NCBI RefSeq assembly: GCF_030684315.1
Contig: NC_081371.1
Span: forward strand, 51,156,390-51,220,389
Source of the DNA: Stegostoma tigrinum
Taxonomy: Eukaryota
Direction of reading: 5' to 3'
Length of the DNA stretch: 64,000 bases
Shown: in pieces, positions 10,101 to 59,022 of the stretch
Position numbering within the stretch: position 1 is the first letter of the stretch
Layout of the letters: every line of letters starts with the position of its first letter
The notes under the pieces: model-generated
Database searches by the model: none
Seen by the model: only the letters and a program-made list of their open reading frames with translations
What the model was told of the DNA's origin: nothing
Translations under genes and position numbers: made by a program

Positions 10101-13100
10101 AGCAAGACTGGCCAGACCCAATTTTCCAAAAGTTATAAATTTAGCTTAAAGGTATTTCCTTTAGGAAACAAGGTAAAACCCTGTTTTATTACACACCTCT
10201 GGAAGAGGTGGGAATTGAATCTGGACCGCCTGGCCCAGAGGTACATGCAATGCCACTACATCACAATAGCCCTAAAGATTTAGCTGAATATATAATGGTA
10301 ATGAGGGAATGGGGTTCATCTGTTGCTGGTTTGTGATTTAAAGTTCCCAGATGGAGAGGGAAACCTTTTATTGCTCAAGTTGTTAATCATAGAGGTTTAA
10401 GATTAGTTTTCTTTAGATATACTGGCAACAGAGACCATTTCCTAGACTGTTATTCAGACCAGTGCCTTGACATCTTTCCCTGTTTTCACGCTGAGATTAC
10501 TGAAATATGCTGATGGTTTAATTCTGCCTAGTAAATTTTGTGACTTTGCAAGAAGATTTGGGGCAGCATGGTGGCTCAGTGGTTGGCACTGCTGCCTCAA
10601 AGCACCAGGGACCCAGGTTCAATACCATCCTTGGGCGTCTAACTGTGTGGAGTTTGTGTCTGCGTGGGTTTCCTCCAGGTGCTCTGGTTTCCTCCCACAG
10701 ACCAAAGATGTGCAATTTAGGTGGATTGACCATGCTAAATTTCCCATAGTGTCCAGGGATGTGCAGACCTGGTAGAATGGCCATAGGCAATGTAGGTTAC
10801 AAGGATAGAGTGGGGAGATGAGTCTGGGTGGGATGCTTTTTGGAGTGTTGATGTAAACTTGATGGGCCAAATGGCCTGCTTCCACACTGTATGGACTCTG
10901 TGAAATGTGGCAGCGTAATGGAGGTGGCAGGAAAGTATTGTGCTTGGCTGGCTTAATGAAACCCAATTAGATACGGAATGGCAGCTGTAGTTTCTTATAA
11001 GGTAAATCCCTTATCTATATGGACCAGAGAAAGACCGGTGCCTTCCTGTTCATTGTCATTGTAACACGAGACCACTTAACCCATCAAGCCCATGCCAGTA
11101 CTCTAGAACAAATCAGTCAGCCCTATTCCCTCACTCTATCACCTGTGTTGCAACGTTATTCCTCTTCACTGCCTCTTCAGTTTCTTTTCAAAATCATTGT
11201 TTTACTTTCACTACCCTCAACAGTAGCAGTGGTAGAGATGAGAACATGATTGGAGTTGTTGTGGTTTTGTTGAAGCCTCTCTGGCAATGCCGACATTTGT
11301 TGCCCATCCCTTCTTGTCCGTCTGAAAGTTTTTTTTGTGAGCTGTCTTCCTGAACCACTGCAGTCCAGTGGGGGGAGTGCTTGGATTTTTAATCAACAAC
11401 AGTAAAGGAACGATGCTATAGTTTCACGTCCAGATGTGTGAGACTTGGAGGGAACTTGCGAGTGATATTGTTCCTGTGTATCTGCTTCCCTTGTTCTTCT
11501 AGACGATAGATGTTGCAGTTTTGAAAGATGCTTTTGTCTGGTCACGTCGTTGCATTGTTTACAATGATGGTACACTGCAACCACCTGAGGTTGGGGTGCC
11601 AATCAAGTGAGGTGACTTGTCCTCGGTGGCATTAGTTTCCAACCATTGGAGAGAATTCCTTCACACTCCCAATTTGTGTCGAATAGGTGTTGGGCAGCCT
11701 TTGCAGCGGCGGAGGTTGTGTCACTCACCACACAATTCCCAGCCTCCAAGACTGGTGTCGCAGATTTGGAGGACTAACTAACACAAACCATTTTTTGTGC
11801 ATCTCCAAGTATTTTTAACCACAATCATAGCTCAGCTGCAGAGGAGGGGGGAGGAGGAGTGGAAGAACAATAAAGGATTTAATAATTTTTGGAACAAGAG
11901 GACCTTTCTGCAGTTGAAGATGGGACTCCAATAACTTACTTAACCAATCCTGTCAACAGGGAGGCAATGTTGTCTAGTGACTGCAGTGTATTCTTACAGG
12001 CAGGGTGAATAGCCAGAGCTCTTGATCCACATTGGTGGCAATAACCCTATGTAGGAACAGGATGAGGTTCTGAAAACGTGTTTTAGAGAGCTACAAAAGA
12101 GATGGAAATTCAGGATTTCAATGATGTTAATCCTCAGATTACAGCCTATGCCACGTTCTAATGAGGACAGAAATAGGAGGATACACATAATGAATATATA
12201 TCTAGGATATTTGATATCTAGGGAGGAAAGGAAAAGGAGGTGGGACTGCAGTGGTTCAGGAAGATAACTCTCAAAAAACTTTCAGAACGACAAGAGGGAA
12301 AGAAACAAATGCTAGCATTGCCAGAGGTGCAAACATCCGAAGAATCAATTAAACAAAACCACATTAACTCCAATCACATTCTCCTCCTTTCTACCACTGC
12401 TACTGTAGAAGGTAGTATAAGCAGAAAGCAGTGTTGATAAAAGATGAGACCCGTACATTAGTACAAGAGGATCAGTTTGATAGAACTAAGCAATACCTAG
12501 GGCAACAAGTACATTATTGAGAGCTGATTATAGGCCCCTAAACAGTGCTGATAACATACATCATGGTATAAGTCAAGAATTTAGAATTATATGTAACAAG
12601 GCTATTGCAGTAATGCTATGGAAGATTAATTCTTGGAATGTATACAAGGTTTTTCCCCTACATTAGAACATTGAACAACCAACTGGAAATTGGGTTATTT
12701 TACATCTACTTTTGTACAGTGAGAAAAGGCTAAGGATCTCATTGCAAAGGAGCCTTTAGAAAAGAGTGAACCAAAACAAAGTTGCTGGAAAAGTTCAGCA
12801 AATCTGGCAGCATCTCTGAAAGAAAAAGCAGAGTTAACGTTTCCGGTCTAGTGACCCGAAGATTCTGAGGAAGGGTCACTGGACCTGAAACATTAACTCT
12901 GTTTTTCCCTTCTCAGATGCTGCCAGATCTGCTGAGCTTATCCAGCAACTTTGTTTTTCTTCCTGATTTACAGTGTCAGTTCTTTCAGTTTTTATTTAGG
13001 AAAGAGTGATCATGATATGCTAAAATTTTACATTTATTTTGACAGTGATGTAGCTTAATCCGTAATCAGGGTAAGGAAACTACAGTGGTATGAGGGGAAA

Positions 13101-16100
13101 GTTGGCTGTGGTAGTTCAGGAAACATTTAAAAGGTATGATGGTAGACAGGCAGTAGTTTGGATTTAAAGAATTAATGCATGCTTGAAAACAATTTTACAT
13201 TCCTTTTAATGTGGCCAAGTGCTGGAAAATGGGATAGGTGTAGATAGGTCAGTGCAAACTCAATGATCATTAGGGCCTCTTCTGTGCTGTGTGACTGTGA
13301 CTCTATAACACATAAATTCTGAATAGTGAAACGATTCTACTTTGACAAACAAGAACTTAAAGATTATGTTAGGTCAAAGGAAATGCTTTTAAACTTGTCC
13401 AAAAAAAAGTGTGCCTGGAAATTAGTATGCCTCAGAATTCAGCTAAGGAGGACTGAGGAACTGATAAAGGAAGGGAAAATAAAGCATCAATGTAAACTAG
13501 TGCAAACATAAACTATATAACATCGTACAATATGAAAAAACACTGACAGGTGTGGGTCTTAGAAGCAGGAGAATTTATAATGGCAAATAAGGAAATAGCA
13601 GCGAAATAATGCAAATACTTTGTCTTCATGGAGAAAAATACAAAATAACCTCCCACTGACATGGAGTGAAAATTAGTTAACTGAAACCAATAGAGATAAA
13701 TCTAGTAGAGTTAAATCAGCCACTCTCAGGTTGGCAGGCAGTGACTATTTAGATACTGCAAAGTATTTGGACCTCAGCTACTCAATCTATAATCAGTAAT
13801 TTGGATGTGGGGACCAAACATAATGTTTCCAAGTTGCTGGTGACCCATAACTAGGTGAGAATGTAAATTGTGTGGATACAAAGGGGCTTAAAGTAGGTTT
13901 AAACAGATTAAATGATTGTTCAAGTGCATGGCATGTGGGATGTAACATACAAAAATGTCAAGTTTTCTACTTTGATAGGAAAAAAAAAGAAATGCAGCAT
14001 TTTCTTTTTTAAAAAAAAATAAGAGTTGAGAAGTCTTGATGTCCAATGGGACCTTGGTATCCTTGTTAACAAAGTGTAGAGCTGGATGAACCTCTTGGTA
14101 TCCTTGTTCTTGAGTTACTGGAAATTAATGTGCAGATGCAGCAATCAGTTGAGAGGCAATTTTGAGCTGGCCTTTATCACTAGAGTTGTAAGTACGGGAA
14201 TAGTAATCTCTTGTTGCAGTTGTCTAAATCCTTGTTGAGATGACACCTTGCCCATGGATGGGGTGCAACGAAGGTTTGCCACACTGGTCTCTTGCATACT
14301 GGCATTGTCCTCTGGGAGACATTTAAAGTAGCTGGGCCTGTGTTTTCTGGTGTTTGAAAGAATGAGAGATAATCCCTTTGAAACATACAGAACTCCTGCA
14401 GGGTTCAACAGGGTAAGAGCAGGAAGGATATTTTCCCTCAATAAGGAGAGGAGCTATTTCGGACTGAGCAGGAATTTCTTCACTTATAAAAGCATAGAAC
14501 TCTACAGGGCGGAAAGAGGCCATTTGATCCATAGTCTGCACGAACCATCTGAAGAGCATCCCACCCAGACCCAGCCCTCTACCCCACTACCCCACATTTA
14601 CCATGACCAATCTACCTAGCTCTATGGATGATTTAGCATGACCAATCCACCTAACCTGCATATCTGTCGATTGTTGGAGAAAATCAAAACACCCAAAGGA
14701 AACCCAAGCAGGCAGTCGCCCAAGGCTGGAACCAAATCCATGTTACTGGCGCTGTGAGGCAGCAGTGCTAACCATTGAGCTGTCGTACCACACCTCAGGG
14801 CAATAAAACTTTGGCAGCCTTTACCCCAAAAGGCTGTGGAGGTTCTGATTTGAGAATGATCAACTCAGACAGAGATTTCTAGCTATAAAAGACATGAAGG
14901 GATATGGGGATAGTGTAGGAAATTGGTTAAAAAGTAGCATTCTGTGTAATTTTTCTTGCTGCTGCAAGGTACTCCAACGTCTGTATGCAACAGTGGCTTC
15001 CAGAAGCTAAATCCATGCAGTGACATGCTGATCAACGTGTATGGAACTTCCCAGCAGCTGCACGGCCACAGCTTAGAGGGAACGTTGGTTTCGAGGTAAA
15101 GAAACCATTATTTAGTTGAATGGCAAATAGCTTACTCCTAATTTCTATGTTCCACTGCTTCAAGAATACACTGAGAAATGCTTAAATGCAGGCTTTCCCT
15201 CTAACATGAAGAAAAGTATGAAGGAGAGAGTAAGTTATAACATTTGTATTGGAAACAGCTGTTAGTTACTCTTGTATTTTGTTGGCTTGCTTTAAATCTT
15301 CTATACTGGTGGCTAGAATAAGGCATTTTTGAGTGTCTGCCAAATCATTGTTTTTTTTCTACTTTTTGAAAATAGCATTTCTGAATTTGTTTTGAGTATC
15401 CTGAAGAATATAATATCTGGAAAGTTAGTTCAATGTTTTGGGTGAAAATTCCATCGAGAGCCTTTGGATATGATTGCACATTTCCTTAAGCAATGTGATA
15501 TGTTTCCTGTGAAAGTACATTTCAAAATGGAAGCATATGCTTGGCTTCCTCTTTGCTGCTGCTGAAAGTACTTAGAGCAGAATTGGGCACAATGTTGATG
15601 TTCTTTTTCCTTGTGGAATATGTTGCTAATCAATGCTGTCCCATAAATTATTGGATACTTCTGCGAGAGTAAGTAGCATGAGTGTAACTGCAGTATCTTT
15701 GTTAGTATGTGATAGTGAAAAGACTGTATTTTTCTTGCCTGAAGAAATTCTGCTGGAGCTGTGAAAGCTGAATGTCAAGTATTTTTACTTACTCATAACC
15801 TGCTGGTTATAATTTCCTTTCCATTCTAAGTTGAGTCTGTTGTTTGTTTTAGATTGGAATTAACCCAGGGTTGATGGCAGCATACAAAGGGCATCATTAC
15901 CCTGGACCAGGAAATCATTTTTGTAAGTTTTTGTATCTACACAAATTCTGTTGGCTGTTCTTAAGTCTTTTAGATATTTTAACATTTGTTTGAGTGGATT
16001 GTGTGATGAGCAAATCATACTGATTTTTACTGTTAGGTTTTTCAGAAGTGGACTATTGTCGTTTCTTAGTTATTATTCTCTAAGCTAGTTCATTTTATTA

Positions 16101-19100
16101 TGACTGTCTCTTACTTTATATTCACACTTTAACCTATACCTTTTTGTTTATAGGGAAATGCTTGTTTTTGTCTGGTCTTATTGATAAGCCTTTAAATCAT
16201 CTGGATGATGCTTCTTTACCAGAAAAGTATGGAATAGGTTTCACAAACATGGTAGAGAGAACTACTCCAGGAAGCAAGGACCTCAAAAGGTGATTCAGGA
16301 AAGCAAATTTAAAATTCATTTTTTGTTTCGGTTGGTACGAAAACATAATGTAAAAATTATTTGCATTTCAGCAAAGAGATTCGGGAAGGAGGAAAAATAC
16401 TTTTGCAAAAATTACAGAAATTTAAGCCACGAATTGCTGTGTTTAATGGGAAATGTAAGTACGCGTGAAAATTTTAAAAAGAAAGTTCCGACAATAACTT
16501 AATATTCAATTTTTTTTAAACTATGAATGTCGAGTTACCAGTACTGGGAAACCCAATTTCAATACAAAACACTCCCATTATGTATAGCACTGAATAAAGC
16601 TGCTTCTGACTTAACATGAGGACAATCAGTCTGTGACGAATGCCTCTGAAGTAAAAGGTCTCTGTACTTTCAGCTCCTCCCAGAATATGAGTTTATTGAG
16701 GTTATTGACTAGCTCGCCAAGCTGTCTTGTTCTCATTCAGACGTTTCATCACCCTGCTAGGTGACATCATCAATTGTGCCTCCGATGAAGAGGTGTTATT
16801 CTACTCCGCTTGGAATTTGTACTGTTTGGTCCATTATGCTGAGTAGTTCAGCAGGCAAATCAACAACCACATCCATATCCCAAGCTACAGATCTCTGCCA
16901 ACTGCTTACTATAATGGACCAAACAGTATAAATTCCAAGCGGAGTAGAATAACACCACTTCGTCGGAGGCACAATTGATGATGTCACCTAGCAGGGTGAT
17001 GAAATGTCTGAATGAGAACAAGACAGCCCGACGAGCAAGTCGATGACCTCACCCACGATTCTCTCTGTACTAATTGATATAAATACAGAGGGCATGTGCA
17101 TGGAAGACAACTTAAATTTATATTATCTGTCAAAAACAAATCACATTGAAAAGTTTCATTTTACACACCATTTACAGGCATCTATGAAATTTTTAGCAAA
17201 GAAGTTTTTGGAGTTAAGGTGAAGAAATTGGAGTTTGGGCAACAGCCGCACAAGATCCCTGAAGGAGAAACGGTAAGTACCTTAATATGATTTAATTTCC
17301 TTTGTACTTTTAAAATTTTGAAGTAAATAATGCTGTATTCCTATTTGGAGAACCCTTCTTCGCTTTCTCAAAGCCCCCAAACTTCTTGCTGTCTGATGAC
17401 TCTCGTCAGTGCCTCTTGAATCTTTGCTGTAGGGAAGAAAATCTTCACATCTTTTGATTAGTATTCATAGATTAGGTGAAAAAGTATTTCTAGAAGTTGG
17501 TATTTGTTTTATCAGTAGCTCTTCCGTATGCATTTTAATTCAGCACATGATGTCACAAACCTTCAGGGAAGAGTGTGCTTGTAATCAAACCCCACCATTT
17601 CATGAATGGGATATAAATGACCAACTGAATTACTATGGACAACAAGGTGTAGAGCTGGATGAACACAGCAGAGCAAGCAGCATCAGTGGAGCAGGCAGGC
17701 TGATGTTTCGGGCCTAGACCCTTCTTCAGAAAATCTTCTAACTGAACTACTAAGGTGATTAATTTGCCTGATATGACTCCTATCTACAACAAAATTAAAC
17801 TTAACTGGGTCTCATCAACAAGCAATAAACAAACATCCTATAACATGTGGGAAAACAAATTATTAATAACTACTGAGCATGCTTGAAGTACATTCTCTTT
17901 AAAGCACATTCATTCACAAATAGGAGCACCAAGACAGTTCTGCATGAACACCGTGGTGGAAAACTTGGGTAAAAAGGAGCCAGTTCTGTGGATCAAAAGT
18001 CTGTAGCTCAGGAGTGAAATGAAGTCCTCACAGTTATCATATAAGTCATAGAGTCATACGGCACGGAAACACACCCTTTAGTCCAACTTATCCATGCCAA
18101 CCAGACATCCCAGTCTGACCTAGTCCCATGTGCCAGCATTTGGCTCATATCCCAGTAAACCCTTGCTATTCATACAACCATTTAGATGCCTTTTTAAATG
18201 TTATAATTGTACCCACTGTCTCCATTTCCTCCAGCAGCTCATTCCATATACACACCCTACCCTCTGTTACCCCTCAGATCCTTTTTATGTCTTTTTTCCC
18301 CCTCACCTTAAACCCTATGCCCTCTAATTTTAGACTCGCTTCTCCAACCCCCCCCCCCCCCCCCCCCACCCTAGGAAAAATACCTTGGCTGTTGACCTTA
18401 TCCATGTCGCTTATGATTTTATAAACATCTAATTTTTCTTTTTGGAGATGAATCATATTGTTGATTGTAAGATGTTTGCAGATCCTTAGTTTGGTAGTCA
18501 GTCATTTGGACCTACAGCCATTACTTGAATGAAAAGTCATTTTCAGAATCTGAGTGGTGTTGCGAAGAACAAGAAAGAAAGAGATCTGTCTTTCTTGATG
18601 GCTTCTTGGAGGTCTACAACTTAAGTATCCAAAAGGTTTTTGCAAGGAAATGTTTCAGATCAAAGATACTTGACATCAGTTTATCTCTCAAAAGTTTCAA
18701 ACCTACTTTGCTAAAAGTTACATGACCTTACTTAACCAACAAGTGAACACCACAATGCTCTACTTTTGACCTTTGAATTGTGAAGAATATACCAGATACA
18801 TTCTCTGCAACAGCATGTTCCAAACACTCATTCTCCTTCTCACCTCCCCCCGCCCACCGCCGCCAACCCATTTATAAACTTTTTAAAGCACATCTTTACA
18901 ATTGCCAATTTTCATTATTTTAGGTCAAAAAATCTATTTCCTTAACAGAAACTTGAGTTTTCCTTTAACTGATCTTCACTTTGCTGAAGGGAATCATCTG
19001 TGGTGTCTTAGTCCAGTGATTTTTTTTTTCAAGATTACATTTGTTCCTTTTCACAATACTTTCCCACATGGTAATCCATAAACTTATCCTGGCCAGTGAT

Positions 19101-26935: not shown

Positions 26936-27029
26936 TGTTTTTAATTTTACACTGGAAATGTTACATGTTCATTGACCTGTGCCAATCTTTGAATGCATCT
27001 GGGCAATGTCTGATCACACAGCGGTACTA

Positions 27030-29690: not shown

Positions 29691-32600
29691 CTACAGAAAA
29701 AACAATTTTTTAAAAATGTAGAAATTAGACTCAAGCTACTCTATGGCTGGAAATGTAAAACTGAAAAATGTCTTCCATTTACTAAATCTATTACATGGAA
29801 CACCTCTTGGGATTATACTTTTTTCACACTAGGTATTTTACAATCCTTTGATCACTTTGTTTTAATCAAACTGATCTTTGTTTCTTCTTGAGATTTTTCC
29901 AGCAGGTACATTTTTGCCAAGATTTTATTCTGCTGCGATATGACTGATAATAAATTCATGATAATTGTTCAGTTTATTTTTTGATATGTCTTAAGAGTTT
30001 GTTTCTCTGACATGATTAATTTTTCACCATATTTTCAAAGCTTGTGCTGTAAGTGATTGCCGTATTTCGTATTTATGTATTTGGTCAGTGAAAGTTGAAT
30101 GATTGAAACTCTCTCTGATGAAGGGTCTAGGCCCGAAATGTCAGCTTTTGTGCTCCTGAGATTCTGCTTGGCCTGCTGTGTTCATCCAGCTCCACACTTT
30201 GTTATCTTGGATTCTCCAGCATCTGCAGTTCCCATTATCTCTGAATGATTGAAACACCTGTTTTTAAGATCCGGCTAAGAGTGGATGCAGACTTTGTTTT
30301 GTTTTCTGTCAATTTTAAAAGTGTAAAGTCTACATATGTGTATTTTTAATGTTATCTTTTATCCAGAATTGTAACATGCTTCCCACTTCATATAATGTGT
30401 CCTCCCACTTCAGTTATCAGAGATGTGTGTCATATTTGTTAGCGTTATATGCAGCCAATTTGCAGGGTTCTTTTTTTAAAAAATGTTCTTTATCTACTTT
30501 TCTATTTGCCTTTGATATTTCATACAAGATCAAACTTTCTAAATTGTAAGTTCGTATCACGTGTCCAATAAATTTCAGATTCAAACTACCTCTTCCCGAA
30601 CCAGGTCAGTCGAGTTGTCTTGGTCATGGTTTAGTAAAATTACTTGCCCAAAATGGTTTTAATTCTTGTCTCAGTGCTTCTCTATGTTGCTTTGCTGATT
30701 ACCCTGCACTCATTTGATCAGTAATTGGTGTGATGTAGCTTTCCAGGATTTTCTGCTTTGTTGTCATGGCTAACTTTATGTTGATCATTTCTTTTTCACT
30801 ATTTGAAATGTATCTTTGACATTCCAATCTTTTGACTCATCTTTGTCATATGTTATGTCCAATGTTAACATTATTCCTAGATAACAAAATCTGTCTGATA
30901 TTTTCATTTCAATGCATGTAGTATAATTTCTATTTGGATACTAAGAGACACTTGGTTTTCTTACGATTTAAATTCAGCTCTTTCTCGTCACTTCCATTCA
31001 TTGCTATATCACCAACCCTAACTTTTACTAAGTTGGTTTCTGTAAGGTGTGATCAAGTTCTCACACGAAATCAAGTTCGATCTTGACCCGAAATGTCAAA
31101 CTTTCCTGCTCCTATGATGCTGCTTGCCCTGCTGTGTTCAGCCAGCTTCACACTGTGTTATCTCAGATTCTCCAGCATCAGCAATTCCTACGATCTCTGC
31201 AAGATACAGTGGCCCTGGATCTCACAACTCCTTATACTTCAATATGGCATACTGGCCTGCACTTAAAAATTTCCAGATTGCTTTAACTTGGGTTGGGACA
31301 GTTGTTGAAACACTCCTTCACAACAGAAGATTTAGAGTCCACTTTGGACAATAAGTACATGGAGAAGACTAGCCAATAGACTACATCAAGCTCCCCACCC
31401 TGTTCAAACTTATATACGAATAAGTGTCAACAACCAAGTTCTTCCACATGTTCTACTATGCTAGTAACATTTTAAGCACCATCCTTCTGTACCATATAAC
31501 AGATACTTGACAAATATGTTAGAAAAATGATAGGCAACTGCAGTACATAATGTCTCATATTGATCTCTCCAAATCCATGCCTCACTTTCTTGATTACTTT
31601 TTAACAAGTTGTGCTTTTCAATGTGTTCATCAAGCAGATCACCTAAATTCTTTTAGCACTCTTCCTGAGCCAGAAAATTACAAGTCCCAAATCATCCTAG
31701 TTTCAGTATGTAGTTGAGGCTGACTCTAGAGTTTGGTACTGAGGAAATTCTTTTTTCAAACTATCTGTGGAATAGCTCTCTGTGCCTATTTCGGTGGATC
31801 TAAAAATATCCTGTGGCACAATGTATAAGAAAAGCAGGGAGTTACCCTCGCCAGAACTCAAATCAAAATGAGTTAATTGATGTTTGTAGGATCTCAGTTC
31901 CATGAAAATTGGCCGCTGTTTTAGCTCGCAAAATAACACTCTCTATACCTCCAAGTTAATTCACGAGCTGTGCAGTACTCTGGGATGTGCAGTTGTTGTG
32001 AAAGGTGCTATGTAGCTGGAAGTCTTTTTTTCCCCCAACTATGTCCAATTTTAATTTACTAAAAACCTTTTGCGAATATTTGGCTAGCACAAGGAAATTG
32101 TGTTTTTAAAGCTGTGGGAGAAATCTGGTGAACAACTTCAAACTATTGTATGTTCCTGGCTGTGTCCTCTGCATGTACATTGTAAACAATCTGCCACATA
32201 TCACAAACTACCAGCTAAATGTAATTAGCAGCTGTGTGATCAGTGATCTGATGGCTATTCTTCTAAAGAATCCACTGATTTGTATTCCATTGATTGGTGT
32301 GTTACGAAAGGGGAATGTGCTCCTCCACCAAAGGCAATGTATCAAACTTCAACCCCATTTATCTTAAAAACTGCATGAGTCACAGTATTTTAATTCATTG
32401 CAACTTCAGGCAAATTGTTATGACTTCCAAATTAAGTCCAGTAAGTAAAATCTAATTCAACTGTGTGTAAAATATCGTTTTTTAAACCTCCATTCAAAAC
32501 TTCAGAGAGATAGTGAACAGGGCAAGAATAGGTCTTAAATAAAAACTGAAAGAACTGCTGATGCTGTAAATCAGGAACAAAACCAAAGTTGCTGGTAAAG

Positions 32601-35600
32601 CCCAGGAGGTCTGGCAGCATCTGTGAGGGGGAAAAACAGAGTTAACGTTTCAGGTCCAGTGACCCTTTCTCAGAACTCTGAATATATCTTACCAAGATGT
32701 CGAATATGCCATAAAGGGTTCACTAAGGAGTGTTTGTTGTGAAATACTATTAACATAGGAGGGGTCACTACTCCTTCGGCTAGTGCACTGCTGTACAGAT
32801 TCTCCCTATAAATGAAAAGAAACTCAATGAATGAGAAAAACATACAGACGACATTTTCATATACTGAGATAAACCCATTTCTGGTACTATAATTTCAAAA
32901 ATATACTAGAAAATGTTGCAAACCATATTTGCAAAATATATATTATTTGACACGTAATTAGCAACAAAGATTTTCATCCTAGGACTAAAATCCCCGCAAG
33001 TCTCATCTGTCTCTAATACTGTAACCTCCTCCAGCCCAACACACCTTCATTTCTGGCCTCCTGCACATCCCAATATTCCTGTTTTCCACCACTGATGCCC
33101 ATAACTTCTGCTGCTTTTGCCCGTTAAGCCACAAAATTTCCTCCTTAAACTCTCCGCATTTCTACTCCTGCCTTTAAGATTGACTTTAAAATCTAGCTCC
33201 TTTCCTGTACTAATACCTCCATGTGGGGCCCAGTGTCAAATATTGTCTGGTAAAACCCCTGTAGCATACTGACATATTACACTAGGTTAAAAGGCTGTAG
33301 GAAGTATTGAGAACTTTAGAAGATGTTTACATTTTTTTTAATTTGTTTTTGATTTATTTTTGTTTTCTGATTTTCTTTTCTGAAAGGACATGTTATTCCT
33401 ACCACTGTAAACCAAATTGATTTGAAATATTTCTGATGAAGGGTCTAGGCCCGAAACGTCAGCTTTTGTGCTCCTGAGATGCTGCTTGGCCTGCTGTGTT
33501 CATCTAGCCTCACATTTTATTATCTTGATTTGAAATATTTGCAAGGTTCCCCGAGTTTTCAAAAATTGGGATTTTGAGTTGAAAATGACTGAGCTACATT
33601 GCTGGGTCAAGAATTCTCAATGACATTTCACTATTGCTGCACTGGCACCAAGGTTTCAGTGCAAATACAATGGGTCAAATGGCATCCTGTGCCATATAAT
33701 TCTATGTAAATGGAAAATAAATGGTATCCAATTCTTCAGCTTTCTCTGTCACCTCCAAATACTACTAAGAGTTACCACTGTTTCCATTTTCCATTAAGAT
33801 GGCAGTGGAGTAGGGTTTCTGAGCCCGGGGCTCATCTGCTTTTCTTTTTGTTCCTTTTCTTCTATTTTATTTTACTTCCTACTTGGTGAAGAGATCAGTC
33901 ATGGCAACGGCATCTATGGTGGTGAGTGGGCCTAGCAGTACAGTCTTGTGTCAGTGACATCAGAGGCAGGTCCAGGTTCCTGGTGGTTTCTGCATCATTG
34001 AGGCGGTCATAGCCCTGACTCATGGCTGCTGTGGGTTTGGGTTGCCAACATCTGCCTTCAGTGCAGATTCATGAAAGCAGAGGCAGGTTTGGGCCCATTA
34101 CGAGACCTGACAGAATCAGCAGCTGCTGCGTTGGGCCCGAAGCGGAATCAAGTTTGGGCCAGTGCAGTATCAAGCAGCACTGGTAGCGTCTGCTTTCGTG
34201 AGGTCCAGCAAGGACTCTTGGTGGTGAGGGTGCTGGTGGAGGCAAGGTGGCGGCAAAGAGTTGGTGACTCTTTTTCCAACAGCAGCAAGCTGCAAAGGAA
34301 ACGTTACCCGACCACCAACCCATGGCCTATAATGGAGCAGTTAACTGTAAAGTTGAACACTTTCTTTATTTCTTCATTTCTCTGCCTTTATATTCTGTGG
34401 GTTTGGTTTCTATCTTGTACTTAAAGTTGGCGTTGGACAGTGGCAACACAGTACACATTTTGCCCTATTTTGTAAGCAGATACAAAGACAATAAATAAAT
34501 CAAACTGACTCAACTTTATAGGAAGACAGTGGCAGCGTGGTCGTGTCACTGGCTAGTGAGCCAAAGGTGCAGCTCTGGGGATGTGGGCTCAGTTCCCCCC
34601 ACAACACCCCTATCTGGTCTAGAAATTATGTGACCCTAGACCCGCAATGGTTGGCTCTTAACTGCCCTCTGAAACAGACAAGCAATCTATCCAGTTCAAG
34701 GGGAATTAGGGATGGGCAACAAATGCCAGTTATGCCCACATCCCGGGAATGCAGAAAATAATTAAACTACATGTTTATTCTATTGGCTTACAGCATCTCC
34801 ATGTTATAACAGGGAGATGTGGATAACTGATTGACAGCCCCTAAGTAAACTGTTAGCTTTAGCCTAGGAGACACATATTGCAGAAAGGATAATAAAGAGG
34901 AGAAAACAATCCTTGGCTTTTAGCAAAATTAATTCCTGACAAAAACTTAATAAGTAGCACACAGGAAGATTTCAGTTCTTAACATCAGTCTTTCTGGATG
35001 TCTCAGATTAAATAGTTGTAAGCCAACAGAACTAAATTTTTAAAAAGACTAAAATGAAAATTCTAACGCTTACTTGAGCAGCATAAAGTACCGGATCAGG
35101 AGTAGGCCATTCAGCCCTTCAAGCCTATTTGCCATTCAATGTGACCGTGGTTAATCATCCAACTTAGGATCCTGTTTTTGCTTTCTCCCAATACCCATTG
35201 ATCCCTTTAGCCCCAACAACTATATGTTACTCTTTCTTGCAAAATATTTAATGGTTTGACCCAAATCTCTTTCTGTGGCAGAGAATTCTACAGGCTCAGT
35301 GCTCTCTGGGTAACAAAACTGCTCCTCATTGCAGAATTACACGGCCTTACCTGAACCGTCACACTGTGACCAGTGATTTTGGACTCCCTGATCATCAGGA
35401 ACATCCTGTGTTTACCCTGTCTAGTCCTGTTTGAATTTTATAGTTTCTATGAGGTCACGCCTCATTCTTCTCAACTCCAGTGAATAGAATCCCTACAGTG
35501 TGGAAGCAGGCCAATAGGCCCATCAACTCCACACCAACCCTCTGAAGACCATTTCACACAGGCCCATCCCACCTCTGTAACCCTGCATTTCCCATGGCTA

Positions 35601-41600: not shown

Positions 41601-44600
41601 TTGTGAGGCAGATTGGGATCATTGTGAGGCAGACTGGGATCAGTGTGAAGCAGATTGGGATCACCTTGAGCCAGACTGGGATCAGTGTGGAGCAGACTGG
41701 GATCACTGAAAAAGAGAAGAAAGTAAATCTAACAGCAGTGTCATAGAAAGCCGTGAGTTGATCGGTGAATTTTGCAGCTTTGTTTATTTCTCTCCGAAGT
41801 TAAACTAAAGTGCAAGGAAATTAGAAGTTTCTTGACAATGGGATTGAGTAATTTCTAATATTGCATGCAGTTCTCGTCACTACTAGAAGGACATGGTTTC
41901 TTTGGTGATAATGCAGAGAAGGTTTACCAGAATGTTGTTTGGTCTGGAGGGTTATAGTTATGAGGAGAGGCTGGATAAATTCAGATTGTTCTCACTGGAA
42001 AGGCGGAAGCTGAGGGTTGACCTGATAGAGGGCTAGAAAATCATGAAAGACATAGGGAGGGTGGACAGTCAGAGGCTTCTTCCTCAGGTAGAAAGGTCAA
42101 CTATGAGGGGGCAGACATTCATGGTGAGAGGGACAATATTTAAGGGAGAAGTGTAGGGGAAATTTTCACACAGAGGATGCACTGCCAGTGGAGGTGCTGC
42201 TAGTGGACACATTATCAATGTTTACGATATATCTTGATAGACACATGAACAGGAGGTGAATAGAGGGATGGATACTGCTCGTGGGCAATAAGTAGTGGCT
42301 CTCAATAAGTACTGGAATCTTGGTGAGCCAAAGGGCCTGTTCCTGTGCTGTATTGTATTGTATTGTACTGTGTAATACATTTCAATCAATCTCCCTGTGT
42401 CTAAGTGATGACAGAAGATGAGAACTGAATGATGAAGGGTCTAGGCCCGAAACGTCGGCTTTTGTGCTCCTGAGATGCTGCTTGGCCTGCTGTGTTCATC
42501 CAGCCTCACATTTTATTAGCCTGTTAAGTCTGTACTTTTTTAAGTCATAGACTTTATTATTTAAGACAAAGAGGAATGGCAGAGCAGCTTCAACTCCCGG
42601 CATTTTTAGGACAAAGCTTCTCTCTTTGACAATTGTGTAAATTTTGGATCCCTCTGCCTCAGAAGACAGTACAGGCACAGTCATTACATTTTTTAAGCCA
42701 GAGATAGGTTGATTCTTCTGAACCAGTGGAATCAAGGGCTATTGTGGGTCAGTAGGAATGTGGAACTCAAATAACAAAACACATCAGCCATGAGCTTATT
42801 AAGTAGCAGGACAGGCTTGATGGGCTCAATGGCCTATTCATAATACATATGTTTTGAGGAGCATGTTAAGTAAATCTGTAACACTGGAGTAGGCTTTGTG
42901 AAGGGTGTATCCCCAACCTATTATTCCGGGCTCAAAGCATTCATACTCACAGGTTTCAGTAACTCGGGTCTTGCTGAGTCTGGTCTCACTTTCCCCTGCA
43001 GTATTGCAGCATTGAATTCCATCATTTTGTAGTGGATGCCTTTCAGCTTTGTGTTTTCGATCCATTTGCTAATGGAAAGTGAGCGGGCAGGGGTGGTTGG
43101 ACAGAAAACATAATTAACCTGTTTATCTATCTGAAGAAATGATGATTCGCAGAAGTGGAGGAGAGCACACAAAAGTAAAAGCCATAATAAGGTGACGAGA
43201 AATCTTGTCCCTTTATACAATGATATCAGGTTCCTTCACATCAGCTCTTCATCCGAACTTATCTCCATTCATCCCACTAAACCTAAATAACATGATCGCA
43301 TTATGTGTTATATTCAGAATCATAATGGATGTCAATGAATAACTATCATGTTTTTGGGGCAGCAGAGCAAATGCTTCCTCCAATTTATCAGGATTCCAAC
43401 TTGTCAAAGCCATTTGACTCAGTCATTTGACTTCCATTTAATTTCGATCTACCACAGAATCCACTTCTTGTTTAGTGTGGCCTGACCTTTGGGAGTTAAG
43501 GGGCTGTCATTGGGACATGATGGAACAGGATGGGGGTCATTCCTAGGGGGCATTATGACAGAGTGGATTGCCCACCTCGTATAAAACTTGCCCAATTTTC
43601 AGCGATTGAGTTAAGACTACATCATATTCACTGCACAGAAATAGGCCATTCAGCCAATCCATGTAAGCACTTTTCTCCTCCCTTTTCTTTTGTAGGATAT
43701 AGGCAGCATTGGCAATGCCAGGATTTATTTACTATCCTTAATTGCCCCTTGGATAGAGAACCTCCCTTGATCATTTTAAAGCGTGGTTAAAAGTCAACCG
43801 CATAGCTGGAGGAGGGAGTTACATATAGGCCATACCAGGAAAGTGTGGCAGGTTTCCTTCCCTAATAATATTAGTGAACTAGGTGTGTTTTCTTTACAGT
43901 AATTGGTTACACGGTTGACATTGGATTAACTTTTAATTCCAGGCTTTTATTTATTTCAAATTTCACCATCTGCCATGATGAGGTTCAAACTGATGTCTCC
44001 ACAACAATAGTCTAAGGTTCAGGATTACTACAGTAGTGACATTTCCATAATACTTCCATCTCCACATGTCCCTGAATCCACTGTCTTGATCGGTCATGGT
44101 TTGAGCACTTTTCTACTCTCAGCCGTCTCTGCTCTAAGGAGAACAATCCCATGTTCTCCAACATCACTGACATCTTAATTCCTGGACCAATCAATCTGTC
44201 TTCTCTAAAATCTTCATGCCTACCTGAGGTGTTGTGCTCAGTTCTGAGCACCATACTCCAATTGAGGCTGAACAAGTTTGTACGGGTTTGTCCTAGTTTC
44301 CTTGTTTTTGCATTTGCTAGGCCTCTAAATGGAAAAGTCTAGGATCCCAAATGCCTCCCACATTTGTATCAGAGATAATGGGAACTGCAGATGCTGGAGA
44401 ATCCGAGATAACAAAGTGTGGAGCTGGATGAACACAGCAGGCCAAGCAGCATCTTTGGAGCACAAAAGCTGACGTTTTGGGCCTAGACCCTTCTTTTCTG
44501 ATGAAGGGCCTAGGCCTGAAACGTCAGCTTTTGTGCACCTCTGATGCTGCTTGGCCTGCTGTGTTCATCCAGCTCCACACTTTGTTGCCTCCCACATTTG

Positions 44601-47600
44601 ATGATTTGCGAATCCATACCCCAAAGCCTCTCTTGTTTGCCTTTTGGAATTGAATCCTTAATTTATATTGTTTTTTCTTTGTTCTTCCTAGCAAAACGTA
44701 AGGTGGTTATGAACATTAATTTAACAAGAATTAATTTAACAAATAATTGTAACTTCTTGTCACAATGTAAAGGCTTTATTTTCCTAACAACCTCTTTAAT
44801 GAATTTCTGGTTATCTTAAATATTTGCCCTCCCACAGAGCTGTCACCTCACTAGTTGGTAAAACTGTCATTTTTTCAGAGAAAAGAAAAGACCTGAAATA
44901 ACATGTATTAACAAGTATCTTACCTAATATGAACGAGGGAGTCTCTCAGTGTAATTATGTAGAAAATGATATTGGCATTAGTGTTGCTATAGATACTGTT
45001 GATTGTTGCAATTGTTCCACCCAATCGGTCTTCTGCAGCACAGATTATAATTGGTATCACATCTTCGGGAGCAGAATCATCAGAAGGAGGAACATTGCTC
45101 TGTTTCACAGTATGGCCTGCATTGTGAACAGTTGGAGATTCAGGTTCTTCAGCTGAATAGTAAATGTAGATAATTAGGTCATTGAAAGGGAAGAGAGGGT
45201 AACGTTCACTAATTAATTGCCACAAGACACAGAAATTGACAGCACAGAAACATTCATTTCAAAATGTCCATTCCAGGATCCTATGTACATTATATTATCT
45301 CATACTATAAGAATATCTTTCCTTCCTCATGCACTTATCCAACTTGCCCAGAAATACATCTTGAGATTGGCTAGAAAAATACCACATTTCATCAGAGATT
45401 TTTCTTTTGTACTCTTCAGGACAATTCACAAGAATACAAAAGTAGTGGGGAAAACAAGTTTAGGATGGATGAGAAAAAAATGCTGATTGCTTGGCAATAT
45501 ACTTCACTTTGATCGTTAAACCCAAATATGCAGCATTTCTTGTTTGAAATTCAGCAAAAGTCTACCCCATTAAAAACGAAAAGACAAACTAATTATGATC
45601 TATGAAGCCAGATTTCAGTCTGGGATCTGAATGATCCAGTAATAACTCATCTTGATAATCTGAGTCATAGTTGGTGATGGTGAGGGGGATTGACACCTTT
45701 CTCTGAAGCAAACACTGGCTGTTTTTCCTGCCTAGTGCCAGAATTTAGGACATCTTCTTAGGGATGGAATGGTGGTGCAAGGATCAATGGTTATGATCCA
45801 GTTCGGTACTTACAATGTAGGTAGAACTGGGAAAGAAGTTTCACGTAGAGAGAAGGGAAGCTAGGCATTTAATTAAGAAGATTTAATGGTTCTTAGTGTT
45901 CCTGATTAACAGCATCCACAGTTCTTTTGGTTTTGATTAACTAAGAAGCACAATGTCAAAGGTTATAATCTCTGGATTATTACTTAACCGATGTGCTGAT
46001 TGGCATCGGTACAAAACATGAATATATGGCTCAAAGACTGGTGTGAAAGAGTGGGTTCTCGGGCCATTTACACCAGTACTGGGGAAAGTATGAGCAATAC
46101 CATTGAATTGGTCTATATCTGACCATGCTGGGGTCAGCGTCCGTGTGAACTGAATAAATAGAGAAGTGGAGGGGTTTCAAGTGAGATAGTGAGGGCAAGG
46201 AATCAGAAATGAAAAGAGCTGTTATAACAAAGAGTAGAGACAAGGTAAGTGAGGAAAATAGTAACATGGGCAATTCGGATCTAACCCCACGTGCCTGCTT
46301 CTGGCCCCTGTCCCTCCAACCATTTCCTATTCATGTACTTATCGAAGTGTCCTTTAAACATTGTAACTGTGCCCGCATCCATCACCTCCTCAGGAATTTC
46401 AATCCGCACATGAACCACCTTCTGTGTAAAAGAATTCCCCTCATATCTTTCTTTAAATCTCTTTCCTCTCACCTTAAAAATATACACCCTAGTCTTGAAT
46501 CGTGGATAAAGACACCTACCATCAACCCTAACTATACTCCTCACCTGTCACCTGTCAATGTCCTACACTAAAAAAGTCCCAGCCTAACTAGCCTTTCTTT
46601 GTAACTCAAACCTTCCACACCCAGCAACATCCTGGTAAATTTCTTCTGAATCCTCTCTAGCTGAAAGAAAAGGACAAACTAAAGCTCTGTATCTGAATAT
46701 GTGTAGCATTCATAACAATGTACATGAACCGATATCATATATTTAAACAAATAATGTTCTGACAGCCATTATAGAGACACTGCTACAGGGTGGCAAAGAT
46801 TGGGTCTTCAATGTGAAGGGGTATATGACATTAAACTTAAACAGAAGACTAGGTGGAGGGGTAGCATTGTTAATCAAAGATGATATCCATGTAATAATCA
46901 GAGGCTGGGATATGGAATTGGGCTGCATGGAGATAAGGAATAGTCAGGGAACAGAGAAAGAACTCACTTGTGGGGTCAACAGGCTCTCTAACAGTAAGTA
47001 CAACGTTGGACAAATTAGACAAGAAGAAACATTGTGTGCTTATGATAATGGGACAGCAATAATCATGAGTGATTTTAATCTACTTGTCAGAGATAACACA
47101 GTGTAGAGCTGCAGGAACACAGCAGGTCAGGCAGCATCAGAGTAGCAGGAAAGTTGACGGTTCTGACCAGGACCCTTCATCGGGACTGGTGAAGCGTGTA
47201 AGCCCAAAACATTGACTTTCCTACTCCTCTGATGCTGCCTGACTTACTGTGTTCCTCCACCCCCACCCCCACACTGTAGAGGCTAGGATACGCTAGACTT
47301 GATACTGTGTAATGCGACAGGTTTAATTATTTTTTTAAAATTCAGTCATGGGATGAGGGAGTTTTTTTATTTCCCATCCCTACTTACCTGGAGGCCAGTT
47401 AAGAGTCAACCACATTGCAGTGGGTCTGGAGTCACAGGTAGGCCAAACCAGGTAAGGATAGCAGTTTCCTTTCCTAAAAGATATTAGTGACCCAGATGGG
47501 TTTTTCCTGACAATCAACAATGGATTTATGGTCATCATTAGACTCTTAATTCCAGATTTTTATTGAATTCAAATTCCACCACCTGTGCAGCAGGATTCAA

Positions 47601-50600
47601 ACCCGGATCCCCAGAACCTTACTTGGGTCTCTGGATTAACAGTCCAGTGATACCACTAGGCCACTGCCTCCCCTAATTACCTCAGCGTAAAGGCACCTAT
47701 AGGTGGCAGAAACAGTATGATGGAATTTTACATCCAACTAGAAAGGGAGAAGATTTTGACTAAAACTAATGTTTTAAACCCAACATGGGTCAACTACGTG
47801 GAATTCCAGAGGCATTTGCTAAGAATCCTAGAATCACAGATTCATGGTGCAGAAGGAAGCCATTCAGCCCATCAAACCTTGCTTTGTCTGTGCATCACAT
47901 TGCAAAACTGTTGCCTTTCATGTAATTTTTAAATCTTTCTCCTCTCACCTTAAAAACACGTCCCCCCCCCAAGTCTTGAAATCTCCCATCCTAAAAGAGT
48001 TAAAGGAATTTTATAATGAACTCCAAAGAGTTGAGAAAAGTTTACTTGCCTGTTCAAAAAGAGTAGAGTGAGCTTTGCTCTGTATTTAAGCCAGTGCTGC
48101 CCCTATTCCAGGAGTGCCCCGTGGGCACGGTGTTGAGGGGACCTGACTTTTCTGTTTATATCCCATTTAAAAGAGTAGGTTGGGAAGGAGAACAAGAACT
48201 GTGGCAGAGCTGACATCAAACCGTAAAATCCAACTGAATGTTAAATGGCTTCAAATCAAAATCACTGTACAATCTGGAATTCCACCGTTCCTCGAACCCA
48301 GATGAACTCCCTCCTGTAAACAACACAGGAACACTCACCTGCTTCCTCCTTGTACAGCGACATTTTGTGAAATTTGTTGTAAAGGACCAGGCAAAATGTC
48401 AAAATAACTAGGAACAGCAAGCCCTGATTAACTAGAAAAAAAACACCAAAAGTGAGAAAAAGACAAAGTATTTATCAAGGAAAGAGCAAATCCAAACAGA
48501 TTAATCAGCACTTCAACAAGTAAACAAAGCTCATTATGAAAAGCCATGAATTTCTACAAAAATATTTACAAGATACTAAAACTTGTACTTGTTTTGTGAA
48601 TATGTTATTTTATATCAATGTTGTTAAGGATAAATGCATTTTGAAATGACTGGAATATACATCAGAAATTTTGTCCCTGGAGCTTGAGATGATTATTGGC
48701 CCTACCTCCATCCCAACAATGGCCTCTGAAATGTCCAGTTTCAAAATAACACAAAATCAGGCTCGGCAGTTTATTATAGCAACAAATACAACAACAATGT
48801 GAATTTATTCAGCACCTTCCATATCATAGAAAGTCCCAAGTTGATTCCATTGGGGTGTTAACAGATAAAGTTTTGACACCAAGCCACACTTGGAGATATT
48901 GGGGGCAAATCAAAAGTTCGATCAAAGAGGGGAGCTTTAAGGAGCATCTTGAAACAGGAAAGTGAGACAGAGGGGTTGGAGAGCTTGCTATACAGAGAGA
49001 CTGCTGTGAATGGTGACGCAGTCATAGTTGGTGAGCCATGAAGGGGCCAGAATTGGAGGAGTGCAGAGATCCAACAATGCTGTCAGGCTGCATGGTAGTG
49101 CTGTGTACTGGGACTGGTAAATGAGGATTTAGACATTTGTGCCTGTAGTCCAGCTCAGGTGGAATTATTGAGAATGGCCCAGGCACCTCATTACACAAAT
49201 CTATTGAGAGCAGTAAGTTACTACAGGGGAGGATCAAGCAGCTCTTTCACACAGAATTATATAATGGCTACAATGGAACAGATCGCTTGGCCCTGTCTGA
49301 ACATCTGGGGTTCTTCCACCACATCAGCAGTCATTCCTAAACTCATGTGCCTAGCTCCAATACCTCCTTAATTCTCATCCACTTTTCTAACCTCTTCTTA
49401 AATGCTGATAAAAGATTCCTGAGGGGTTTTGACAGGGTGGATGCTGACAAGACAGGGAAAATTATAGCTGGAGACATAGGTTTAACAAAAGGGATCTCCC
49501 ATTTAATAGATAAAGAGATTTTTCATTTCTCTCAGAGGCTTATGAGTCTGTGGAATTATCTTCTTCAGAAAGCTGTGGAGGCTGGGTCATTTAGTATTTC
49601 AAAGCCAGAGGTAAATAGATCTAAACTTCTGAAGAGTTATACTGGACTCAAAACATTAACTCTGTTTCTCTCTCCACAAATACTGCCGTTTCCCCAGGGT
49701 TTCTCCAGCATCCCTTGCATCTGTTGGAGATAAATCCTTGACTGTCAAGAGTTATGGAGCAATCAGGAATGTGGATTGAAGACATGAACAAGTCAGCCAG
49801 GGTTGATTGGAAGGGGAGCCCAGCAGGGAAGACAGTGGAGCAGCATAGGCAGGTGTTTCTGGGGATAATTCGGGAAGCACAGCAGAAATTCGTCCCAAGG
49901 AAGAAGAAAGGGGAGGATTAAGGAGACGGTGAGGCAACCATGGAAGTCAGGACAGCATAAAAGAAAATGAAAAGGCATATAACATGGTGAAGATCAATGG
50001 AAGCCAGAGATTTGGGGAGCCTAGAAAAACCAGCAGAGTGCAATTAAAAACACAATTGGTGGTGGACGGTGGTAATATGATGAAATATGAGAATAAAGTG
50101 GCTAATAATATAAAGGACAGCTACAAAATTTTTGTAGATATAAATAAGGTAAGAGAGAGGCAAGATTGGACATTGGACCGCAGGAAGATGAGGTTGGAGA
50201 AGTAGAAACAGGGAACAAAGAAATGGCGGAGGAACAGGAATGGGTATTTTGCATCAGTTTTCAGGATGGAAGATAACAGCAGCACACTAGAACTTCAACA
50301 GAACCAGGAGGCAGAGGTGAGGGTAGTGGCCATCACTAAGGAGAAAGTGTTGGGGAAGCTGAAAGCTCTGTAGTGGATAAATTACCTGGACCAGATGGAC
50401 TGCACCCCAGAATTCTGAATGATTAGTTGAAGAGATTGTAGATGCATTGGTGGTGATCTTTCAGGAATCACTGGAGTAAGGGAGGGCACCAGATGATTGG
50501 AAGATGACTAATTTAATACCCCTGTTTAAGAAAATGTGGAGGCAGAAGAGAGGAAACTACAGGCCCTTAACCTGACCTCAGTCGTCAGTGAGATTTTAGA

Positions 50601-56510: not shown

Positions 56511-56714
56511 TTTAAGGGGAAAATGGTGGCATAATGGTAATGTGATTGGACCCAGTAATCGAGAGGCCGAGACTAACGCTGGAGGGATGCAGGCCCAATC
56601 CCAGAGCAGCAGTTGGTGGAATTTAAATTGAATCAATAATCCTTGAATAGAAAGTTAGTCTTTGTAATGATAACCATGAAACAATGATCAAATATTACAA
56701 AAACCCATATGGCC

Positions 56715-58002: not shown

Positions 58003-58640
58003 GCTGCCACCTCTCAGCCCATCTCTGCATCCTGTCAATGACCCGCTGCAGCCTACAACAGCCCTCTTTACTGTCAACGACACCTCCAACCTTTGTGTCG
58101 TCTGCAAACTTGCTGACCCATCCTTCAATTCTCTCGTCCAAGTCATTAATAAAAATTACAAACAGTAGAGGCCCAAGGGCAGACACCTGTGGAACACCAC
58201 TCACCACTGACTTCCAGGCAGAATATTTTCCTTTCACTACCACTTGCTGTCTTCTGGTGGCCAGCCAATTCTGTATCCAAGCAGCTAAGTTCCCCTGTAT
58301 CCCATTCCTCCTGACCTTCTGAATGAGCCTACCATGGGGAACCTTATCAAATGCCTTACTGAAGTCCATATACACCACATCCACAGCTCGACCCTCATCA
58401 ACTTTTCTAGTCACATCCTCAAAAAACTCGATAAGGTTTGTGAGGCATGACCTACCCCTCACAAAGCCGTGTTGACTGTATTTGATCAAGCCATGCTCCT
58501 CCAGATGGTCATAAATCCTATCCCTCAGAATCCTTTCTAACACCTTGCAGACGACAGACGTGAGACTTACTGGTCTGTAATTGCCGGGGATTTCCCTATT
58601 TCCTTTCTTGAAGAGAGGAATTACATTTGCCTCTCTCCAG
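58003..58640 (-). mobile_element. Young, uninterrupted CR1 reverse-transcriptase fragment
   Basis: Open frame [58 protein letters not shown]. Confidence 0.93.
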
Positions 58641-58866
58641 TTATGAAAGAAAAAGTTAGTAAAGCAAGTTCTGCAGATGAACAGGCTTACTGACCTACTA
58701 GACGACAGTATTTCCAGGTGTATAGATCATATCTTTGCATTTTCAAGAAAATGAATAGCACAGCATCACAATATTTACTAACATTTAAATGCAGACCCCT
58801 ACATTTTTTTTTAAACAGATGGTAGCCATGATGTGGAGTTGCTGGTGTTGGACTTGGATGGGCAAG

Positions 58867-59022
58867 GTCAGAAGTCACACGACACTAGGTTATAGTCCAG
58901 CAGGTTTATTTGAAAACACAAGCTTTCAGAGCACCATTCCTTCGTCAGGCAAAGAGACTTCAATAGCTTGTGATTTCAAATAAACCTTTTGGACTATAAC
59001 CTGGTGTCGTGTGACTTCTGAC
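58867..59022. mobile_element. Inverted-repeat element (family D, hammerhead-like core)
   Basis: Arms of about 58 bp (gtcagaagtcacacgacac... and ...gtgtcgtgtgacttctgac); minus core CTGACGAAGGAATGGTGCTCTGAAAGCT. Confidence 0.8.

What the first reader, a model, noticed from the sequence alone, without database searches (positions are those of the whole stretch)
12770..59022. Four dissimilar repeat families share the same core with different, compensatory stem II helices
Family A: CTGATGA-A-GGGT/GCCC-GAAACGTC. Family B (12865, 32640-32673): CTGAG(G/A)A-A-GGGTC/GACCT-GAAAC(G/A)TT. Family C (16735-16780, 16976-17010): TGATGA-T-GTCACC/GGTGAT-GAAAYGTC. Family D (58918-58950, minus): CTGACGA-A-degenerate stem-GAAAGCT. 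The stem sequence changes but pairing is kept, there is always one extra nucleotide after CTGAnGA, and a 4-nt palindrome (ACGT or AGCT) follows in the best copies. This cross-family covariation is the best in-window evidence that an RNA structure was under selection.
Basis: partly seen in the sequence, partly recalled or inferred. Interest (0 to 1): 0.7.

Follow-up and report, generated by a model that had tools for sequence, protein, structure and literature searches.

The report
Penelope retroelement minimal hammerhead ribozyme remnants
Several short repeat families in this animal genome carry the stripped-down hammerhead ribozyme pattern already described for Penelope-like retrotransposons; they are likely truncated, decaying ends of such elements whose ancestral RNA would cut itself only as a pair, so the finding is real but mostly ordinary.

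Summary
The motif is real: a minimal hammerhead descriptor finds 8 exact and 13 near-exact hits, against means of 0.015 and 0.27 in 200 shuffles. It fits the published minimal type I hammerhead of Penelope-like elements (PLEs): CUGANGA, one extra base, stem II opening with G-C, GAAA, and a palindrome in place of stem III. The carriers also look like PLE ends: head-to-head pairs, a ~35-nt tail on one arm only, and target-site duplications. In 19 of 35 marine metagenome matches the same motif lies just downstream of a GIY-YIG-type PLE reading frame. No PLE reading frame was found in the window. Corrections: families A and B are homologous, so there are three lineages, not four. Covariation among them is modest (p=0.019). 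Family C has U at C3, and family D's stem II is broken. CpG decay hits the core and the palindrome, so selection acted on master elements rather than on these copies. Two leads remain: A and B copies stop just upstream of the core, and some tandem junctions resume exactly at the predicted cut site. Verdict: new members of a known kind, low interest.

The parts
33433..33524 (+). Family A copy, no tail; core 33433-33460, predicted cut after 33460; exact 16-bp target-site duplication (33417-33432 / 33525-33540)
30109..30243 (+). Family A copy with tail (about 30210-30243); core 30115-30142, palindrome decayed; duplication 14 bp exact (15 of 16)
8118..8254 (-). Family A copy with tail; core 8250-8223
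42429..42523 (+). Family A copy, no tail; begins one base into the core
44366..44586 (.). Family A head-to-head pair; minus arm has the tail and a truncated core, plus arm core 44498-44525; exact 15-bp duplication around the whole pair
60004..60243 (.). Family A head-to-head pair; cores 60136-60109 (-, with tail) and 60150-60177 (+, no tail); 9-bp candidate duplication (weak)
17640..17732 (-). Older family A copy; core 17729-17702; duplication 12 of 13
3233..3358 (.). Family A minus copy with truncated core, joined to a plus arm made of the element's first bases fused to the tail
31081..31205 (+). Decayed family A copy with tail; core lost
47087..47266 (.). Decayed family A head-to-head pair; cores mutated, no tail on either arm
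12768..12994 (.). Family B head-to-head pair in a TDG intron; plus arm core 12865-12894 with tail, minus arm starts at stem II; duplication 14 of 15
32537..32680 (-). Family B copy with tail; core 32673-32644 (G8 changed to A); the only window copy with a long stem I (7 bp)
7139..7269 (+). Decayed family B copy with tail
8805..8972 (.). Decayed family B head-to-head pair; tail on the minus arm only
59113..59289 (.). Decayed family B head-to-head pair; tail on the plus arm only
49641..49710 (+). Decayed family B copy
16697..17051 (.). Family C head-to-head pair (152-nt arms, 91% complementary) in a TDG intron; cores 16773-16740 (-) and 16975-17008 (+); an ATG inside the core opens a short frame of 21 codons; 10-bp candidate duplication (16659 / 17062)
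58864..59025 (.). Family D head-to-head pair; core 58948-58920 (-) followed by AATAAA; plus arm starts near the palindrome; no duplication found
9228..9401 (+). Host context: thymine DNA glycosylase (TDG) exon
   Evidence: E 7e-18
17177..17272 (+). Host context: further TDG exon
   Evidence: E 3e-12

Best explanation
The repeats carry the minimal type I hammerhead pattern, sit as single or head-to-head insertions with an optional one-sided tail and target-site duplications, and are likely 5'-truncated ends (pLTRs) of at least three Penelope-like retrotransposon lineages whose ancestral RNA would self-cleave only as a dimer. SHOWN here: the motif, its excess over chance, A/B homology, inverted pairs, two discrete 3' ends about 35 nt apart, duplications, very high abundance and CpG decay. 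FROM THE LITERATURE: in PLEs the palindrome after GAAA cannot fold as a hairpin, so two ribozymes pair through it to form stem III and cut after the UH (PMC4209133). The PLE protein nicks AT-rich DNA and starts reverse transcription at two sites downstream of the ribozyme, which gives the optional tail; cleavage needs the protein and is not required for insertion in vitro (PMC11167929). INFERRED for these families: a PLE reverse transcriptase/GIY-YIG protein encoded elsewhere copied a pLTR RNA from one of the two start sites back to about the start of the ribozyme, often adding an inverted partial copy. The different stems II reflect selection on the master element of each lineage. The present copies are mostly inert.
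For: Descriptor 8 and 13 hits against 0.015 and 0.27 by chance. All four diagnostic features of PMC4209133 are met. Eight head-to-head pairs (A 3, B 3, C 1, D 1) plus a fused arm at 3233-3358. The tail is present in 5 of 13 A rows (one of the 8 negative rows, A3327, has it on the facing arm) and on exactly one arm in 5 of 6 A/B pairs. Duplications of 13-16 bp in 5 of 18 units and 9-10 bp in 2 more; an exact match of 13 bp or more arose in 1 of 1500 random window pairs. The same core with a GGGT/ACCC stem II occurs at 35 places in 33 metagenome loci, 19 of them within 900 nt downstream of PLE C-terminal homology. Family C has an ATG at the start of stem II opening 21 codons, like the anole PLE and the 12-22 codons in pLTR plus tail of a rotifer PLE.
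Against: No PLE reading frame in the window: Pfam on 150 of 155 open frames of at least 72 aa gave no GIY-YIG hit, and its two RVT_1 hits are not beside a hammerhead 5' end. A profile of 46 PLE-type proteins found nothing (one tblastn match at E 0.042, not near a core). Protein searches with translated A and C pieces found nothing, so no direct link from A-D to an autonomous element is shown. The marine loci share only the motif with A/B, not the body, and 34 of their 35 matches are one family. Family A stem I is at most 2 bp in all 8 copies with a GAAA, and C has 1 bp. No cleavage or expression was tested. 11 of 18 units show no convincing duplication.
Confidence: 0.88

Rival explanations
1. 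A and B are dedicated non-autonomous mini-elements of about 95-135 nt (SINE- or retrozyme-like) with their own fixed RNA start at the ribozyme, mobilised in trans by a PLE protein, rather than random truncations of long PLEs. This is a variant of the best explanation, not its opposite.
For: None of the A or B window copies extends as shared sequence more than about 7 nt upstream of C3. In contigs of three coded organisms the match ends at 33429-33432 (A) and 32676-32677 (B), with flank agreement of only 0.35-0.47 (table 7). By contrast most marine copies continue upstream into the element.
Against: The loose-end position is set partly by where the window's own copy ends. The weak flank consensus for B is similar in three organisms, so a minority of longer copies probably exists. 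The copies are not tandem arrays, which define non-LTR retrozymes (10.64898/2026.07.22.740005).
Confidence: 0.4
2. Some copies are host-adopted intronic ribozymes or hairpins that regulate TDG or neighbouring pre-mRNAs.
For: The B pair at 12768 and the C pair at 16697 lie between TDG exons, with one arm in the sense direction, and form long hairpins.
Against: Both sense-strand cores there have lost the palindrome (ACAT, ATGT) and have 1-2 bp of stem I, and C lacks C3. Inverted arms would pair with each other and bury the core (inference). The families are very abundant and decay at CpG.
Confidence: 0.04
3. The shared core is chance, or mere common descent of repeats with no RNA structure.
For: Only three lineages; A and B share the core by descent; D is degenerate; Rfam finds no hammerhead.
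Against: Shuffle means of 0.025-0.27. C and D bodies are not convincingly related to A/B yet keep the core, extra base, opening G pair and palindrome. The pattern equals the published consensus.
Confidence: 0.03

Closest known systems
Minimal hammerhead ribozymes (min-HHR) of metazoan Penelope-like elements, Cervera and de la Pena 2014 (PMC4209133; main text parts 1-2 of 4 and supplement file 2 part 2 read)
   Same: Type I core, one base between positions 9 and 10.1, G10.1-C11.1 opening pair, palindromic 15.2-16.2 with no stem III loop; several sequence-diverse families per genome with compensatory stems; mostly single truncated motifs, some as opposite-strand pairs 100-700 bp apart. The listed turtle motif has the same AGCU palindrome and downstream AAUAAA as family D.
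   Different: No shark or Callorhinchus entry in the one supplement file searched (file 1 could not be searched). Family A stem I is 2 bp, short of the usual 3-5 bp, though 2-bp cases are listed. Family C has U3 with G8 rather than the described U3-A8 swap.
Complex PLE insertions with inverted pLTR, tail and target-site duplication (PMC8557442, PMC3846280: passages read; PMC11167929: parts 1-2 of 4 read)
   Same: Adjacent inverted 5'-truncated copy, 30-40-nt tail on one end only, duplication around the whole unit, reading-frame start inside the ribozyme or pLTR (family C).
   Different: Here only pLTR stumps remain, with no reading frame. A/B 5' ends cluster at the start of the ribozyme.
Non-LTR retrozymes (bioRxiv 10.64898/2026.07.22.740005, parts 1-3 of 5 read; supplements closed)
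   Same: Non-coding, type I hammerhead, proposed to derive from PLE pLTRs; reported in one chondrichthyan genome; solo monomers are common.
   Different: Defined as tandem repeats with a ribozyme in consecutive units. The window's copies are dispersed or head-to-head, and none of the 4 tandem arrays holds a core.

Membership tests
min-HHR (type I, PLE-associated) | Core CUGANGA and GAAA...UH | tested here: met
   8 exact and 13 with at most one mismatch; C has U3 in both arms
min-HHR (type I, PLE-associated) | One base after position 9, stem II opening with G10.1-C11.1 | tested here: met
   window B, C and D show G.T at this CpG, and for B the C is common in contigs (41% of X1 depth, 55% of X11)
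min-HHR (type I, PLE-associated) | Palindrome replacing stem III | tested here: met
   ACGT in 8 of 13 hits, AGCT in D; the rest are CpG-decay forms
min-HHR (type I, PLE-associated) | Stem I of 2-5 bp | tested here: inconclusive
   B32673 7 bp, D 3 bp, A at most 2 bp, C 1 bp, other B 0-2 bp; most copies end at this strand, so master elements are needed
min-HHR (type I, PLE-associated) | Self-cleavage as a dimer | not testable with these tools
   Free cofolding of two copies did not select the palindrome pairing; energy folding is a weak test for this fold
Penelope-like elements (EN+) | RT plus GIY-YIG reading frame upstream of the pLTR | tested here: inconclusive
   Absent in the window, as expected for stumps; present upstream of 19 of 35 same-type motifs in marine loci; no genome held
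Penelope-like elements (EN+) | Inverted 5'-truncated partner copy | tested here: met
   8 pairs
Penelope-like elements (EN+) | Optional 30-40-nt tail on one end | tested here: met
   On one arm only in 5 of 6 A/B pairs; not established for C and D
Penelope-like elements (EN+) | Target-site duplication | tested here: met
   5 strong and 2 weak of 18 units
Non-LTR retrozymes | Head-to-tail tandem units each with a hammerhead | tested here: not met
   No such array in the window; a few head-to-tail joints occur elsewhere in contigs
Rfam hammerhead families | Covariance-model match | tested here: not met
   0 of 9 matches at E<=10 are hammerheads; likely because stem III and most of stem I are missing (inference)

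The most novel reading that the evidence does not exclude
Family A is a very abundant, roughly 130-nt Penelope-dependent mini-element whose template begins at the ribozyme, and its head-to-tail junctions that resume at the first base after the predicted cut (33461; summed depth 674, against 95 and 60 for the two other listed junctions from the same 3' end, table 5c) are a DNA fossil of hammerhead cleavage in the living animal, something RNA-seq did not show for the anole PLE.
Probability: 0.2. Interest if true: 0.55.

Novelty: new member of a known kind. Interest (0 to 1): 0.2.

Why it matters
As filed, it adds further families, probably from a cartilaginous fish, to a class described in 2014, with the same cross-family stem variation that paper already used as its argument. 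I found no paper describing these particular families (searches; supplement search), but repeat databases were not available to check. The role of the PLE ribozyme in vivo is still open (PMC8557442, PMC11167929). A family this abundant lets that be tested by counting 5' ends and tandem junctions against the predicted cut site.

Tried and rejected
No genome was held, so no genome-wide consensus or end histogram was possible. Two pattern scans of viral contigs gave 0 loci each. Rfam's MIR821, mir-577 and mir-1791 matches lie on the inverted pairs and score far below their gathering thresholds; rejected as generic hairpin matches. Open frames of the marine loci gave no tblastn match in the window. 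Short PLE-type protein motifs (recalled, not from a call) gave one loose match, not near a core. Protein searches with a translated A piece, the C start and its 30-residue form found nothing (weak tests for such short queries). No RNA holder was listed, so expression is untested. The second MAFFT alignment misplaced family C and was not used. The first misplaced D by one column and was used as is, with an anchored script count as the check. The C spacer as a tandem partial copy was not significant (189 and 137 of 1000 shuffles). No duplication for D. Lunse et al. (PMC5785218) is not held and is known only from the citation in PMC6765202. PMC6155905 mentions shark only for the shape; PMC8455134 lists Penelope among whale shark repeats (passages only). 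Five of 155 open frames were left out of the Pfam scan, four of them over the 21-nt tandem array.
Full report
CONTEXT. The window is vertebrate DNA of about 40% GC. It holds TDG exons at 9228-9401 and 17177-17272 on the plus strand, a glycosyltransferase-8 exon on the minus strand and two reverse transcriptase fragments. That the host is a cartilaginous fish is my recall of these repeats. Two earlier notes on look-alike elements in other genomes say shark, but no call names this organism. No genome was held.

OBSERVATION. All named motifs are present. A descriptor (CTGAnGA, one base, stem of at least 4 bp, GAAA, NNTH) finds 8 exact and 13 near-exact hits. In 200 block-wise dinucleotide shuffles the means were 0.015 and 0.27; with the palindrome required, 5 and 8 hits against 0 and 0.025. 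The hits are repeat copies: BLAST with one seed per family finds 13 A, 12 B, 2 C and 2 D pieces, leaving out two 16-nt flank matches. A and B are homologous over body and tail (0 of 1000 shuffles); the other five pairings are not convincing. So there are three lineages. Stem II's first four pairs read GC GC GC TG (A), GT GC GC TA (B), GT TA CG AT (C) and GT GC AT mismatch (D). That is 15 of 16 paired; permutation p is 0.003 with A and B counted apart and 0.019 for A, C, D. The pair count on 13 related rows gave 89% paired against 70.9% and a covariation score of 0.562 against 0.236, with slid controls at most 0.227. The structure is real, but the in-window covariation alone is modest.

WHAT IT IS. 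The carriers also have PLE insertion anatomy as described in PMC8557442, PMC3846280 and PMC11167929. There are eight head-to-head pairs. A and B have two 3' ends about 35 nt apart; the tail is present in 5 of 13 A rows and on exactly one arm in 5 of 6 A/B pairs. Five of 18 units have 13-16-bp duplications (three with 14-16 exact bases, two with one mismatch) and two have 9-10 bp. Random window pairs gave 13 bp or more in 1 of 1500, 10 or more in 11 and 9 or more in 41. The duplication at 44352/44586 encloses a whole inverted pair, so that pair is one insertion. Family C has an ATG at the start of stem II that opens 21 codons before a stop, matching the anole PLE layout. A scan of metagenome contigs for an A/B-type core gave 35 matches in 33 loci; 19 of 35 have PLE C-terminal homology within 900 nt upstream on the same strand, and Pfam shows GIY-YIG in 4 and RVT_1 in 1 of 9 locus frames tested. 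Those loci are nearly all one family and share only the motif with A/B.

AGAINST OR UNSHOWN. No PLE frame lies in the window, and protein searches with A and C pieces were blank, so the link of A-D to an autonomous element is indirect. Rfam has no hammerhead match. Stem I is 7 bp in one B copy, 3 bp in D, at most 2 bp in A and 1 bp in C. C has U3 with G8. Free cofolding did not select the palindrome dimer. No RNA run was listed.

STATE OF THE COPIES. Contigs of four runs from three coded organisms were laid on 32500-33600. In X1, 123,549 contigs fit; summed depth was about 1-4 x 10^7 over A and 0.9-2.7 x 10^6 over B, against tens to low hundreds on the flanks. This is no copy number, but it shows very abundant families. 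CpG-type changes hit B's core G12 (16% of X1 depth), B's palindrome (36% and 38%) and A's palindrome (16%). The copies therefore decay like neutral DNA, and the conserved fold reflects selection on the master elements (inference).

MECHANISM. Shown: motif, anatomy, abundance, decay. From the literature: dimer formation through the palindrome with weak cleavage in vitro; protein-assisted cleavage that is not needed for insertion, with two reverse-transcription starts giving the tail. Inferred: a PLE protein encoded elsewhere nicked the target, copied pLTR RNA from one of two starts back to about the start of the ribozyme, and often added an inverted partial copy. Confidence 0.88.

LEADS. First, no A or B window copy extends as shared sequence more than about 7 nt upstream of C3, and contigs stop matching at 33429-33432 and 32676-32677 with flank agreement of 0.35-0.47, whereas marine copies usually run on upstream. 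This suggests a fixed RNA start or a strong stop, but the reference copy's own end biases the position. Second, junctions from A's short 3' end resume at 33461, the base after the predicted cut, with summed depth 674 against 95 and 60 for other listed positions. Only 12 of 112 rows were shown and one amplified junction could explain it. PMC11167929 found no RNA reads ending at the anole cut site, so confirmation would be useful. I give this 0.2.

VERDICT. Observation confirmed, interpretation partly supported. These are new members of a known kind. Searches for a description of these families in sharks found none beyond one chondrichthyan genome in a retrozyme survey; that preprint's supplements are closed, supplement file 1 of PMC4209133 could not be searched, and repeat databases were not available. 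Interest 0.2.

Noticed in passing
window 33429-33432 and 32676-32677 (table 7): Contigs of families A and B stop matching 1-4 nt upstream of the core in three coded organisms. The B sequence at this boundary resembles both an initiator and a splice acceptor (recalled motifs); in D. virilis Penelope an intron ends at the same place (PMC4209133).
   Followed up: partly
window 33527 to 33461 (table 5c): Head-to-tail junctions resume at the first base after the predicted cut. Only 12 of 112 rows were shown, depth is not a count of loci, and one amplified junction could explain it.
   Followed up: partly
window 58001-58726 (-) and 38263-38499 (-): Reverse transcriptase fragments (RVT_1, E 1.5e-28 and 7e-4). 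The first looks CR1-type (recalled) and ends about 140 nt from the family D pair.
   Followed up: no
window 36584-36805 (-): Glycosyltransferase family 8 exon, on the strand opposite TDG; fits the vertebrate TDG-GLT8D2 gene order (recalled).
   Followed up: no
window 6801-7012, 14619-14791, 35587-35799, 51700-51911: A different repeat family of about 200 nt or more (D12-D19), resembling shark tRNA-derived SINEs (recalled).
   Followed up: no
window 41483-41708: 21-nt tandem array, about 11 copies, open in two plus-strand frames.
   Followed up: no
L010:118-1148 (-); L008, L016, L017, L019, L030: Marine metagenome contigs with GIY-YIG/RT reading frames ending shortly upstream of a minimal hammerhead: PLE 3' ends of animal host origin (host inferred).
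   Followed up: yes
window 39122-39280: Assembly gap (run of N).
   Followed up: no
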